Shown here piece by piece: positions 2,600-61,812 of a DNA stretch of 64,000 bases (positions are counted from its first letter, which is position 1; every line of letters begins with the position of its first letter). The notes beneath the pieces were generated by a model. That model saw nothing but the letters and a program-made list of their open reading frames with translations, made no database searches and was not told the origin of the DNA. The position numbers and the translations under genes were made by a program. The stretch comes from Eledone cirrhosa (taxonomy: Eukaryota), in NCBI GenBank assembly GCA_964016885.1, contig OZ024764.1, positions 2,046,001 to 2,110,000 of the forward strand. Direction: 5' to 3'.

Positions 2600-3953
2600 T
2601 TATATTAGCTGTACCTGTGGGCTGTATAGAGGGACAGCTACCACAATATACTGTATATTAAGGACGTTAAAAGACAAACCCAGCCTTATATTAGATGTAA
2701 CAGCAGCCGTATAGAGGGACAGCTACCACAATATACTGTATATTAAGGTCGTTAAAAGGCAAACCCAGCCTTATATTAGATGTAACAGCAGCCGTATAGA
2801 GGGACAGCTACCACAATATACTGTATATTAAGGACGTTAAAAGACAAACCCAGCCTTATATTAGATGTAACAGCAGCCGTATAGAGGGACAGCTACCACA
2901 ATATACTGTATATTAAGGACGTTAAAAGACAAACCCAGCCTTATAGAGGGACAGCTACCACAACATACTGTATATTAAGGACGTTAAAAGACAAACCCAG
3001 CCTTATATTAGATGTAACAGCAGCCGTATAGAGGGACAGCTACCACAATATACTGTATATTAAGGTCGTTAAAAGGCAAACCCAGCCTTTTATTAGATGT
3101 AACAGCAGCCGTATAGAGGGGTCAGCTACCACAATATACTGTATATTAAGGACGTTAAAAGGCAAACCCAGCCTTTTATTAGATGTAACAGCAGCCGTAT
3201 AGAGGGACAGCTACCACAATATACTGTATATTAAGGACGTTAAAAGACAAACCCAGCCTTATAGAGGGTCAGCTACCACAATATACTGTATATTAAGAAC
3301 GTTAAAAGACAAACCCAGCCTTATAGAGGGTCAGCTGCCACAATATACTGTATATTAAGGACGTTAAAAGACAAACCCAGCCTTATATTAGATGTAACAG
3401 CAGCCGTATAGAGGGACAGCTACCACAATATACTGTATATTAAGGACGTTAAAAGACAAAGCTAGCCTTATATTAGATGCAACATCAGCCGTAAAGAGGG
3501 ACAGCTACCACAATATACTGTATATTAAGGACGTTAAAAGACAAACCCAGCCTTATATTAGATGTAACAGCAGCCGTATAGAGGGACAGCTACCACAATA
3601 TACTGTATATTAAGGACGTTAAAAGACAAAGCTAGCCTTATATTAGATGCAACATCAGCCGTAAAGAGGGACAGCTACCACAATATACTGTATATTAAGG
3701 ACGTTAAAAGACAAACCCAGCCTTATATTAGATGTAACAGCAGCCATATAGCGGGACAGCTACCACAATATACTGTATATTAAGGACGTTAAAAGACAAA
3801 CCCAGCCTTATATTAGATGTAACAGCAGCCATATAGAGGGACAGCTACCACAATATACTGTATATTAAGGACGTTAAAAGACAAACCCAGCCTTATATAC
3901 AGTATATTGTGGTAGCTGTCCCTCTCTACGGCTGCTGTTACATCTAATATAAG
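2600..3953 (+). repeat. 85-bp minisatellite (~16 units, some 62-bp deletion variants) ending in an inverted partial unit
   Basis: Unit TTATATTAGATGTAACAGCAGCCGTATAGAGGGACAGCTACCACAATATACTGTATATTAAGGACGTTAAAAGACAAACCCAGCC recurs at 2686, 2771 and onward. 3895-3953 is the reverse complement of part of the unit. Confidence 0.95.
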
Positions 3954-5045
3954 CAAAAGACTGTACTAATGTGTGGAAGTTTAAACATGAAGCTGAACTC
4001 CCAGCTACGCTGAGCAGGGCACGTCTCTAGCATGAAGGATCATCACCTGCCCAGGATCACTATGGAATCTCTATAGGAGTTCGTGATAGGAAGGCCAAAT
4101 ATTAAGAACTTTTGTAGGAGTGAGGGAGAAAGGTTCGCAGCGTATGGCGATAATGGACAGTAATTTGGCCACCAATGCTGACACACCAGCGAGAGGGTGT
4201 TACGGTTGAGGGTCAAAATTCTCAATGAACGTAGGACACGGCCAGTTGACATCAACACCGCCTGGCCAAGGCTATGTCCATCGAAGGTGAATGAATGTGA
4301 GGCACCTGAGGACATAATTATGCCTATATATATATATATATATATATATATATATATATATATATATATATATATATCATCATTGTTTAACGTCTATCTT
4401 CCACGCTAGCATGGGTTAGACGGGTTTGTCCCATTTAGAGGCAAGTTGAGTGACCGTGTCTCGCACATATTATATATATATATATATATATATATATATA
4501 TAAATTTTATTGGTATATTGCAATCGTATCGATATCGATCATCTGATGGTACAATCATAATGACCGGGGCCCGGCTCTGCCTCAATATCTCATCAAATAT
4601 GCGAGTTTATCATCAAAAACACACACCGCCTGTAACTTTAATTACGGACTTACCTAACATATACGTGTGTAAGGGGTGGGGATTGAATAACTGCACTGTG
4701 GACCCTATCGTTAAAACACCCAAGAAACCCCCCAGACACACACCCCTGGATGCTCCAGAATACAAAATGAATTTACAACAGTTTCAGAAAATATTTAGCA
4801 CGGTTCAAGAAATGAATCAACAATTTAAGGTCTTCCATCTCTATCTTGAAAGAAGCATTTAAATACATCGAAATATTAACTAAAACTAAGAAGAGTTTTA
4901 AAGAAATACACTCGACAAATTATTTGTGAATAAAAAAGAAACACGTTGAATTTTATTAAATCCCTACATTTTATTGTTTATTTTCAACACGAATTGGAAC
5001 ACTTGGTCTGTGTATTTCATTAGGAATAAGGTAAGAAGAGACTTC

Positions 5046-5480
5046 ACCTGGATAGGACGACAGTCGATTGCAAGTTTAAAGTTCTCGCCTCTAAAACCAC
5101 CTATTGTTAGGAATTCTCACCATTGTCCTGTCAAAAGACAACTATGATAAACGTATATCCCACTTGACCTGTGACCCCAGGAAGAAGTAGGAACTACTGT
5201 GGGTCTGTAGAAAGTGAATGTTTCACATCGTTATTCTCTCTAGGGCTGCTGCTTCGTTCTCTCTGTTTGTCCAAGCCATTGTATTTATAACCCTAAAGCT
5301 AGAGGGATGTGTAAATAGCTCGATTTAGGAGTAGCCATGTGTTTCATCTATCAAGTCCCTGGGGTGACAGGTCAAACATTTATCATAGTTGTCTTTTGAC
5401 AAGACAATGGTGAGAATTCCTAACAAAAGGTGGTTTGACAGGCCACAACTTTTAGATTAGGTTTCGATTCTTCGACAGGT
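5046..5480. mobile_element. Foldback/MITE-like inverted repeat
   Basis: 5093-5180 (AAAACCACCTATTGTTAGGAATTCTCACCATTGTC..GACCTGTGACCCCAGG) pairs with 5358-5437 (CCTGGGGTGACAGGTC..GACAATGGTGAGAATTCCTAACAAAAGGTGGTTT). Spacer ~180 bp; the outer arms are degenerate. Confidence 0.6.
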
Positions 5481-5676
5481 AAAACATAGTCGAATTCTGT
5501 TACAAATTAATCAATAAAAAATATGTTAAATGTTGTTATATTGGCAATGTAATGAAACAGGTGTGTGTCTCGTTAAGAATAGGTTAACAACTAGGCAGGT
5601 GTAAATAGTAGACCATAGGGGACGAAGAGGGAAAGATTTACAAAAACATCTCAACATAATATAAAATCTAGGTTAC

Positions 5677-5835
5677 CTTTCGGAAAGCTGCTCTTGTCCA
5701 TTGTTAAACCATTTAGCGAGAGTTTCGGGAAAGATTGGAAAATTCTACAAACTGACGGCCATTTTTTTTTCTTTCTTGTTTTGGATGGAGTTGAATGCGC
5801 ACGCGCGAGATTTAGACATCCAGTGCGCATGTTCC
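5677..5835 (-). promoter_or_regulatory. Candidate promoter/first exon of a minus-strand gene
   Basis: Locally CpG-containing unique sequence with TGCGCACGCGCG and GTGCGCATG (NRF1-like) and AAAATGGCCG (YY1-like). Minus strand then reads AACAATGG (ATG 5701-5699), MDKSSFPK, followed by AAG|GTAACC donor at 5677/5676. Confidence 0.3.
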
Positions 5836-5841
5836 AAGTAT

Positions 5842-59700: not shown

Positions 59701-59860
59701 TAGTCAGTTGTGAGTGAGTGTATTTATATACACACACACACACACATATATATATATATATACACACACACATATATATATATACACATATATGTGTGTA
59801 TACACATATATGTGTATAGTTTTATTGTTAGCATAGATACATAAAATATTTGATAGAGTC

Positions 59861-60380
59861 TAACACCACCACTAACACCACTACCACCACTACTACCAAC
59901 AATAACACCACTACCACCACCACTACTACCACTACCACCATTACCACCACTACTACCACCACTACCACCACTACTTCCACCACTACCAACAACAACACCA
60001 CTACTACCACTACCACCACTACTATCAACAATAACACCACTACTACTACTACCACCACTACCAACAACAACACCACTACCAACAACAACACCACTACTAC
60101 CACTACCACCACTACTACCAACAACAACACCACTACTACTACTACCACCACTACCAACAACACCACCACCACTACCTACCACTACTACCACCAACACCAC
60201 CGCCATCAACATTACAAACAACACCATCACCACCACCACTACCTCCACTACCATCACACCACCACCTCCGCCATCATCATTACAAACAACACCACCATCA
60301 GCACCACCACTACTACCACTACCATCACGCCACCACCACCACCACCACCATCCTCATCACAAACAACAACAACAACAACA
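59861..60380 (+). repeat. (ACC/ACT/AAC)n trinucleotide low-complexity tract directly upstream of the GPCR start
   Basis: Direct reading of the sequence. Confidence 0.9.
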
Positions 60381-60400
60381 TCAGCTGGACTGTGACAGAT

Positions 60401-61207
60401 ATGTCGATGGCGGAGGAGCTGCGGAAGGTGAGAGGTAGTCAGACGGCGGCGGCGGCGGCGTTGGCGGCGGCGGCGGCGGCCGTGGCAGCGGCGGCGGCAG
60501 ACGGCGGACACGTTTCCATGGAGATCACGTCGCCGTCCTCGCCGCCGCCTTCGCCTTCCACGTCGCCCACCTCACCTTCCTCCCCGCCGCCGTCCGGCTC
60601 GGCAACGACGTCGGCGTTCCCTACGTCGATCCCGGCCGACGGCGAGCCTAGCTACATCGCGCTGGAGGTGGCCGTCGCCGTGGCAACGATCGTTGGCAAC
60701 ATGTTTGTGCTGATGGTGTTCGTGAGGTTCGCATCCCTGCGGACACCTTCTAACTACTACATCATGTCGCTGGCAGTGGCCGACTTCCTCGTGGGCCTGC
60801 TGGCCATCCCGTTCGCCATCTTGGGCCACGTCGGCCTCCCCAAGGACTTCAATGTCTGCCTCTTCATGAACTCCCTCCTTATGCTGCTCTGCACGGCCTC
60901 AATCCTATCCCTGGTCGCCCTAACTGTCGACAGGTACTGGGCCATCTTCAAGCCCTTCCACTACAAACGCTCGGTCAACAAACGTACCTCGGCTGTCGTC
61001 ATTTGCAGCTCTTGGATCCTATCTACCCTCATCGGACTAATACCAGTGTTTGGCTGGAATAAAGGCCGTCCGAAGCAGCCAAGATGTTTTTTCCTCGAAG
61101 TTATGGATCTACACTATCTGCTCTTCATCTACGTGGTCACCATTCTTATCCCGTCTTTCTTCATCATTGCTGTCTACCTTATGATATACAGAACTGTCCG
61201 GAGACAC
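60401..61207 (+). CDS. Adenosine-receptor-like class A GPCR, coding exon for N-terminus to TM5 (partial)
   Basis: YIALEVAVAVATIVGN (TM1 YxxxE..GN), NYYIMSLAVADFLVGLLAIPFAI (TM2), CLF..DRYWAI (TM3), W..IGLIPVFGWN (TM4), CFFLEVMD..Y (ECL2) and TM5 P..Y. All resemble A2A/Drosophila AdoR. ATG at 60401 (alternative 60407); phase-0 donor CAC|GTGAGT at 61207/61208. Confidence 0.93.
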
Positions 61208-61270
61208 GTGAGTACCGAAACCACTTTCCTTTGTGTAATTTAGCTGTATGATATTATTATTATTGTTTTT

Positions 61271-61812
61271 ATTCAGTTCAAATCCCGCCGAGGTTGACTT
61301 TGCCTTTCATCCTTACGGGGTCGATAAAATAAAGTACCAGTAATGCACTGGGTAATTGCTGGCCTTGTGCCTAAAGTAGAAACAATTATTATTGTTTTTA
61401 TTGAGTTTTTATTCAGTTCAAATCCCGCCGAGGTTAACTTTGCCTTTCATCCTTACGGGGTCGATAAAATAAAGTACCAGTAATGCACTGGGTTATTGCT
61501 GGTCTTGTGCCAAAAGTAGAAACAATTATTATTGTTTTTATTGAGTTTTTATTGAGTTCAAATCCCGCCGAGGTTAACTTTGCCTTTCATCCTTACGGGG
61601 TCGATAAAATAAAGTACCAGTAATGCACTGGGTTATTGCTGGTCTTGTGCCAAAAGTAGAAACAATTATTATTGTTTTTATTGAGTTTTTATTGAGTTCA
61701 AATCCAGCCGAGGTTAACTTTGCCTTTCATCCTTACGGGGTCGATAAAATAAAGTACCAGTAATGCACTGGGTAATTGCTGGTCTTGTGCCTAAAGTAGA
61801 AACAATTATTAT
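61271..61812 (+). repeat. SINE family B body tandemly repeated x4 (140-bp period) in the GPCR intron
   Basis: AGTTCAAATCC(C/A)GCCGAGGTT..GTAGAAACAATTATTATT at 61271, 61411, 61551 and 61691. Confidence 0.95.

What the first reader, a model, noticed from the sequence alone, without database searches (positions are those of the whole stretch)
2600..61812. Window-wide in-place minisatellite birth inside unrelated transposons
Seen: at least seven arrays are amplifications of a short internal piece of a recognisable element. These are piggyBac-type MITE (60 bp), SINE A (48 and 49 bp), CR1 (61 bp), mariner (62 and 81 bp) and SINE B (140 bp). In most cases the host element is intact on both sides. 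Four further arrays (30, 84, 85 and 95 bp) have no identified host. Some junctions show microhomology (CATGGA in CR1, AAATG in mariner HTH2). Established: TE-derived satellites are known singly. Inference: this density across five element classes points to a regional, sequence-independent duplication-and-expansion process, for example a recombination-hot subtelomere or small chromosome, rather than a property of one TE.
Basis: partly seen in the sequence, partly recalled or inferred. Interest (0 to 1): 0.72.

Follow-up and report, generated by a model that had tools for sequence, protein, structure and literature searches.

The report
Minisatellites passed between transposon copies
Eleven tandem repeats fill 39% of this window, and nine are slices of jumping-gene remnants, but most of the same repeats recur at other places in this animal's genome, chiefly on its smallest chromosomes and near the ends of its giant ones; for one family the repeat is gained after the jumping gene has landed, likely by being copied in from a related copy during DNA repair and then growing locally.

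Summary
The 11 arrays are real (24.8 kb, 39% of the window). The reading "private, sequence-independent births in intact hosts" mostly fails. Only 3 of the 7 named arrays have a host intact on both sides, and both quoted microhomologies are overstated. Most units are families with fixed breakpoints: CR1 61-bp junction 19,317 exact hits; mariner 62-bp at 6 listed loci on 5 chromosomes; 95-bp (a SINE slice) 769 hits. Private births: the 81-bp and 30-bp arrays, probably the 140-bp. The regional inference holds at chromosome scale: 13 arrays/100 kb on the three smallest chromosomes, 1.8 inside the giant ones; the window is ordinary for its chromosome (p=0.23). CR1 arrays are gained after insertion: a young subfamily is monomeric in 18 of 20 fetched copies (2 truncated), and array hosts are not one clade (p=1e-5). 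One old CR1 copy carries a foreign-subfamily tract spanning its junction, the mark of gene conversion. Best model: seed junctions are copied between homologous TE copies, then expand locally. Relatives are known in squamates, Drosophila and bird dot chromosomes. This scan noted the same process before on other DNA of this genome.

The parts
2624..3898 (+). 85-bp array with 62-bp deletion units, followed by a 62-bp fold-back copy (3891-3952); no host found; family with arrays at C25 0.76, 2.05 and 3.25 Mb
   Evidence: older degenerate copies at 1-527 and in L007
5842..5979 (+). 30-bp array, 4.6 copies; private growth: an inverted paralog about 12 kb upstream (L007) has the same flanks and about 1.6 copies
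7540..8568 (+). 60/72-bp array (to 8417) in a TTAA-ended MITE; 3' arm and TIR present, 5' TIR missing; same junction in 7 other fetched loci
9104..17580 (-). 48-bp array, 177 copies, variant of the SINE A module, with no SINE flank on either side; similar arrays in L008, L015, L022, L043, L101, L186
22664..23109 (+). 84-bp array, deletion derivative of a MITE-derived 116-bp unit; L087 (C25 6.97 Mb) holds both 116- and 84-bp units
23744..27283 (+). 95-bp array, 37 copies; unit is the 3' part of a third SINE type; arrays detached from the SINE head, with variable ends
34253..35434 (-). 61-bp array, 19 copies, in the 3' end of a CR1-like LINE (upstream body to about 35970; 3' tail lost); genome-wide junction family
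35981..42281 (+). Non-autonomous mariner (about 750-800 bp without arrays), TIRs and TA ends intact; host of two arrays
36227..41434 (+). 62-bp array, 84 copies, in mariner HTH1; same junction at 5 other listed loci with 2-34 units
41562..42048 (+). 81-bp array, 6 copies, in mariner HTH2; exact junction pattern found only here
46630..49551 (+). SINE A intact on both sides, with a 49-bp array of 54 copies (46792-49455) between its 5-bp direct repeats
61265..61813 (+). 140-bp array, 3.9 copies of a 5'-truncated SINE B with ATT-rich linkers, about 55 bp behind a likely splice donor (GT at 61209) of a 7TM receptor exon; not searched genome-wide
   Evidence: other SINE B arrays have periods 70, 97, 177

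Best explanation
The arrays are TE-derived minisatellite families shared across the genome, and most likely a tandem seed junction is copied from one TE copy into a homologous copy elsewhere by ectopic gene conversion, then likely grows in place by unequal exchange, mainly on small chromosomes and chromosome ends. Step 1 (inferred): a rare duplication makes a dimer once or a few times per family, with or without microhomology. Step 2 (sequence signature shown for CR1, suggestive for mariner, untested for the rest): a broken monomer copy repairs off an array-bearing copy and re-anneals out of register. Step 3 (inferred from unit counts of 2-84 around one junction): local expansion. Step 4 (distribution shown, cause inferred): this happens where recombination per base is likely highest. 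Exceptions: the SINE A seed is a TE-borne dimer; the 81- and 30-bp arrays are private births; the 48- and 95-bp arrays occur without host flanks.
For: Gain after insertion: a young CR1 subfamily has 567 copies; of 88 on C1+C2, 2 of 11 distal and 0 of 77 interior carry the exact junction (Fisher p=0.014). Of 20 fetched copies, 18 are monomers and 2 truncated, yet 9 other members carry 2-29 units. Array hosts (27) versus monomers (6) are not one clade, AU p=1.3e-5. Import: L138, an old-subfamily copy and sister of monomer L074 (100/99), is a dimer with own-type sequence on both sides of a young-subfamily tract that spans the junction. L008 and L148 have both flanks of the young subfamily but hold foreign-type units; 8 of the 20 loci fetched, plus L008, mix both main unit types. 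Mariner: all 6 array loci share a junction base absent from the parent; none lies on C1-C8; small/distal copies share non-CpG alleles in mosaic patches (1.12 per pair against 0.31 with interior copies; 0 of 5000 permutations). Region.
Against: Only one clean own-foreign-own case (L138), and it came from loci chosen for that junction type. Eleven of those 20 loci have only G-type units in G-type hosts (one a partial duplication), which self-duplication at the 4-bp CATG repeat explains as well. Monophyly of the mariner array hosts is not rejected (AU p=0.155), so a dimer-carrying subfamily is not excluded; two of the six are a local duplicate (98% alike). Chimeric units could also come from template switching during reverse transcription. 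The GC-bias test for high recombination was not significant (p=0.38). The 35-Mb 'distal' cutoff was set. The MITE, SINE A, 85-, 84- and 95-bp families were not tested for conversion.
Confidence: 0.58

Rival explanations
1. Recurrent independent birth in place: each TE copy duplicates its own segment at a sequence-set hotspot, and a regional process expands it; nothing moves between loci.
For: Own-type arrays in own-type hosts in several CR1 subfamilies; 4-bp and 5-bp direct repeats in CR1 and SINE A; other periods from the same elements (CR1 57 bp in L159 and joints of other lengths in reads; SINE B 70/97/140/177); private 81- and 30-bp arrays; organism A shows the 61-bp joint with letters like its own CR1 variant.
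Against: Cannot give the foreign tract across the L138 junction, the mixed arrays, the shared non-parental base at 6 mariner loci, or a 0-bp-homology MITE junction at 8 loci.
Confidence: 0.22
2. TE-borne arrays: masters carried the dimer or array and spread it by transposition, as with central repeats of MITEs and Helentrons; only the growth is local.
For: SINE A dimers in 4 of 19 giant-interior copies and in most other compartments; mariner monophyly not rejected; 95-bp arrays often end at the same T-rich spot and three follow a SINE B head.
Against: Young CR1 subfamily: 0 of 20 fetched and 0 of 77 interior copies with the junction; AU p=1.3e-5; no exact mariner junction on C1-C8, about two thirds of the genome.
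Confidence: 0.15
3. Assembly over-expansion.
For: No long read spanning any array was seen; contigs did not span the 81-bp array.
Against: Units are varied (57 distinct of 174; 51 of 83; 17 of 37; 33 of 38) and the longest exact internal repeat found is 373 bp (first 6 kb of the 48-bp array examined). Raw reads of another sample show the 61-bp junction: 696 reads from 29 starts.
Confidence: 0.03

Closest known systems
SINE-derived satellites (sSat1-3) of squamates, PMC10702118 (seen: part 1 of 5 and passages)
   Same: Tandem units cut from TE parts, a few to hundreds of copies per locus, subtelomeric preference that is stronger for long loci.
   Different: Here SINE, LINE, mariner and MITE all do it side by side. 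In the passages I read the authors describe autonomous emergence, the word microhomology does not occur, and I saw no test of transfer between copies.
Rsp-like spread into 1.688 clusters on the Drosophila X, PMC7403614 (seen: passages)
   Same: One junction shared by many loci; a rare seed spreads through homology to an abundant repeat by proposed interlocus conversion; a foreign flanking piece travels with it.
   Different: There the landing pads are satellite clusters on one chromosome; here they are single dispersed TE copies on many chromosomes and the unit is a slice of the TE itself.
TE-derived tandem repeats of the human genome, PMC3389668 (seen: passages)
   Same: Minisatellites inside TEs, hotspots in some TE regions, gradual growth after insertion, most not explained by flanking direct repeats.
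   Different: That study saw no genomic hotspots; here there is a 7-fold gradient by chromosome class and one breakpoint reused at very many loci.
'Sequence stuttering' on avian dot chromosomes, PMC12954441 (seen: passages)
   Same: Tandem expansions of tens to hundreds of bases concentrated on the smallest chromosomes; recombination proposed as cause.
   Different: Described as strictly local in origin, GC-linked and involving exons. Here most units are shared between loci and GC is about 40%; exon copies and length polymorphism were not tested.

Membership tests
TE-derived minisatellites (PMC3389668, PMC10702118) | Unit is a segment of a TE | tested here: met
   9 of 11 arrays; no host for the 85- and 30-bp arrays
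TE-derived minisatellites (PMC3389668, PMC10702118) | Array formed or grown after insertion | tested here: met
   CR1 young subfamily; mariner 81-bp
TE-derived minisatellites (PMC3389668, PMC10702118) | Short direct repeats (5-10 bp) flank the duplicated segment | tested here: inconclusive
   SINE A 5 bp, CR1 4 bp, mariner 1-2 bp, MITE 0
Squamate-type sSat | Subtelomeric preference | tested here: met
   12 of 14 loci on C1-C4 within 35 Mb of a contig end, cutoff set after the fact; telomeres themselves not located
TE-borne central repeats (MITE/Helentron type; features recalled, table in PMC9659126) | Array is part of the master and moves by transposition | tested here: not met
   CR1. Inconclusive for mariner; met only at dimer level for SINE A
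Homology-seeded interlocus spread (PMC7403614) | Same junction at many loci | tested here: met
Homology-seeded interlocus spread (PMC7403614) | Foreign sequence travels with the junction | tested here: met
   L138; L008, L148; few cases
Homology-seeded interlocus spread (PMC7403614) | Circular DNA intermediates or 3D contact of loci | not testable with these tools
   no eccDNA or Hi-C data
Avian sequence stuttering (PMC12954441) | Concentration on the smallest chromosomes | tested here: met
   33 arrays/250 kb against 6/330 kb, p=1e-7
Avian sequence stuttering (PMC12954441) | Strictly local origin of each repeat | tested here: not met
   8 of 11 units recur elsewhere
Avian sequence stuttering (PMC12954441) | Length variation between individuals; exon fragments copied | not tested
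   no spanning reads; no exon screen run

The most novel reading that the evidence does not exclude
Dispersed TE copies of four classes act as a recombination network confined to the small chromosomes and the ends of the giant ones: a minisatellite seed born once spreads contagiously through already-inserted copies, old and young, and that compartment is an invertebrate counterpart of the stuttering bird dot chromosomes.
Probability: 0.4. Interest if true: 0.68.

Novelty: new variant of a known kind. Interest (0 to 1): 0.48.

Why it matters
How a new tandem unit reaches many loci is a standing question in satellite biology. Here subfamily-diagnostic letters mark donor and recipient, so seed transfer can be counted copy by copy and set against chromosome size and crossover rate. 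It also warns that TE subfamily trees and ages on small chromosomes may be distorted by conversion. No function for the arrays is shown. I found no paper on this in octopods (searches; the library lacks most subscription papers).

Tried and rejected
Unmasked self-BLAST was swamped by microsatellites; redone masked. GC-biased conversion in 101 SINE B copies as a proxy for recombination: not significant (p=0.38). Mariner trees are star-like and neither show nor reject one clade (L022 and L080 were left out and trimmed; 6 of 36 loci lacked the left arm and were left out of both). Contigs and RAD reads laid on the 81-bp array did not span it. Runs with small word shares were used only as laid. Pfam found nothing in 6 of 9 translated pieces. 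The SINE A 48/49, MITE 72, 140 and 30-bp junctions were not counted genome-wide; they rest on fetched stretches. Rejected: window as a special hotspot; AAATG and CATGGA as the junction homologies; one MITE spanning 7089-8568; the 48-bp array as lying inside a SINE. No supplements were read; those of PMC10702118 may hold flank analyses that bear on novelty.
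Full report
Setting. The window is G000:C25:2,046,001-2,110,000; C25 is 29.4 Mb in a 3.0-Gb assembly with four giant contigs (379-443 Mb) and many of 22-61 Mb. The animal is likely an octopod: this rests on recalled SINE families and an earlier scan note, not on a test.

Observation. TRF gives 11 non-simple arrays with period >=25 and >=3 copies, 24,832 bp. The host claims hold only in part. SINE A (49 bp) and the mariner (62 and 81 bp) are intact on both sides. The 48-bp array has no SINE flank, the CR1 copy has lost its 3' tail, the MITE has lost its 5' TIR, and the 140-bp unit is a whole truncated SINE B. 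Exact microhomology in monomer parents is 4 bp (CR1), 5 bp (SINE A), 1-2 bp (mariner 81), 1 bp (mariner 62) and 0 (MITE). The 95-bp unit is the 3' part of a third SINE type and the 84-bp unit derives from a 116-bp MITE-based unit, so 9 of 11 arrays are TE-derived.

Are they private? Mostly not. Exact junction or unit motifs give 19,317 hits for CR1-61; 130 for mariner-62, at 6 listed loci on C9, C20 (two), C23, C25 and C26 plus at least 23 unlisted hits elsewhere; 769 for the 95-mer, of which 85 lie before C25 and none on C1 or C4-C11; 137 for the 85-mer, with arrays at three places on distal C25 among the 100 listed hits; and 6 for the 84-mer at two loci. The MITE junction occurs in 7 other fetched loci and 48/49-bp arrays in several. 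Only the 81-bp junction is unique (5 hits, all here). The 30-bp array has a local paralog with about 1.6 units. The 140-bp array was not searched; other SINE B arrays have other periods.

Is the region special? I scored 120 ten-kb samples (20 of them centred on CR1 copies; 4 next to the window and 12 that were wholly satellite were left out of the rates). Arrays per 100 kb: C25 13.2 (25/190 kb, 7 of them one higher-order repeat), C26-27 13.3 (8/60), C8-24 5.2 (12/230, one of them a zinc-finger-like coding repeat), giant ends 6.0 (9/150), giant interiors 1.8 (6/330), medium contigs 0 (0/80). Smallest against interior: p=1e-7, or 6e-6 with the higher-order repeat counted once. The window's 11 arrays fit the C25 rate (p=0.23); by bases it is higher (39% against 13%), but 10-kb samples clip long arrays. 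TE copies with >=3 units: 11 of 39 on C25, 3 of 97 on other small contigs, 4 of 28 at giant ends, 1 of 73 in giant interiors, 0 of 16 on medium contigs (an interrupted array can count twice). So the effect is chromosome-wide, not window-wide.

Carried by the TE or gained later? CR1 3' ends are spread fairly evenly along the first 63 Mb of C1 (4,125 hits genome-wide), but 12 of 14 loci with the G-subtype junction on C1-C4 lie within 35 Mb of an end (expected 17%; p=5e-8; cutoff set after the fact). A young subfamily marked by a tail deletion has 567 copies: 2 of 11 distal and 0 of 77 interior copies on C1+C2 have the exact junction, and 18 of 20 fetched copies are monomers, 2 truncated. Nine other members carry 2-29 units. 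A flank tree of 33 hosts (of 40 found; 7 dropped by the filter for a recognisable tail) rejects one clade of array hosts (AU p=1.3e-5). Raw reads of another sample show the junction in 696 reads against about 19,000 that run into the normal tail, roughly 3.5% of copies near the restriction site; PCR duplicates make this rough. Contigs of three other organisms also show it (2 contigs plus 79 loose ends; 7 loose ends; 1 contig). For SINE A the answer differs: dimers occur in 4 of 19 interior copies, so that seed is TE-borne.

Born anew or copied in? L138 is an old-subfamily CR1, sister to monomer L074. Its two units have own-type letters at the outer ends and young-subfamily letters across the junction; self-duplication cannot give that. 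L008 and L148 have both flanks of the young subfamily but contain foreign units, and 8 of 20 loci mix the two main unit types. Against this, 11 of those 20 have only G-type units in G-type hosts, and the loci were picked by junction type. In the mariner all six arrays share a junction base missing from the parent. Arrays sit in 6 of 12 small-contig copies and 0 of 17 copies on C1-C4. Small and distal copies share non-CpG alleles in short, mutually incompatible patches (1.12 against 0.31 per pair; 0 of 5000 permutations). One clade is not rejected (p=0.155), so a dimer-bearing subfamily remains possible.

Mechanism. Shown: shared junctions, gain after insertion in CR1, foreign tracts, regional gradient. 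Inferred: synthesis-dependent repair from an ectopic array-bearing copy with out-of-register re-annealing, growth by unequal exchange, and high crossover density as the regional cause (established for small chromosomes in general, not measured here; the GC-bias proxy was inconclusive). The host-free 48- and 95-bp arrays need a further step, either loss of flanks or insertion of array pieces; this is unresolved.

Comparison. It belongs with TE-derived minisatellites (PMC3389668, PMC10702118), works like the Drosophila Rsp-like spread (PMC7403614), and shares the small-chromosome bias but not the strictly local origin of avian stuttering (PMC12954441). Of these I saw passages, and part 1 of 5 of PMC10702118; of PMC9659126, passages. 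Earlier notes of this scan on the same genome reach similar readings; I saw them after forming mine and they are not independent support. Verdict: real, partly misread, a new variant of a known kind; interest 0.48.

Noticed in passing
window 60563-61208: Rhodopsin-family 7TM receptor exon (Pfam 7tm_1 E 8e-41), adenosine-receptor-like by recall, single copy in G000; the 140-bp array starts about 55 bp behind a likely splice donor.
   Followed up: partly
window 30589-31697: Element with 165-bp inverted ends (97.6%) and a Tc1-like DDE reading piece (recalled look; no Pfam hit).
   Followed up: no
window 27823-28233: Minus-strand piece resembling the GIY-YIG end of Penelope-like elements (recalled; no Pfam hit).
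   Followed up: no
window 3891-3952: The 85-bp array ends in a 62-bp inverted copy, a possible template-switch mark.
   Followed up: no
window 5078-5452, 44454-45055, 54558-55866, 58299-58690: Two inverted-repeat elements (104 and 170 bp arms), a degenerate triplication and a 117-bp duplication.
   Followed up: no
L021:319-557, L118:1366-1435, L124:1711-2176: 95-bp units directly follow a SINE B head, and many 95-bp arrays end at the same T-rich spot; a chimeric retroposing element may exist.
   Followed up: partly
mariner copies, L018-L022, L077-L086, L097-L116: CpG-site divergence is higher in small/distal copies (0.142) than interior ones (0.090) at equal non-CpG divergence; SINE B did not show this.
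   Followed up: partly
L001, L017, L023, L033, L037, L040, L042, L088, L092, L183, L195, L196: 12 of 120 ten-kb samples are almost wholly satellite, each with a different unit (28-143 bp); both samples of the 136-Mb contig C28 are among them.
   Followed up: no
G000:C2:266.7 Mb; L079-L082, L109: A long 95-bp array and five mariner copies cluster at 266-285 Mb inside giant C2; possibly an old chromosome end at a fusion (speculation).
   Followed up: no
L185: Seven short 46-bp arrays spaced about 1.3-2 kb apart: a larger tandem unit carrying an internal minisatellite.
   Followed up: no
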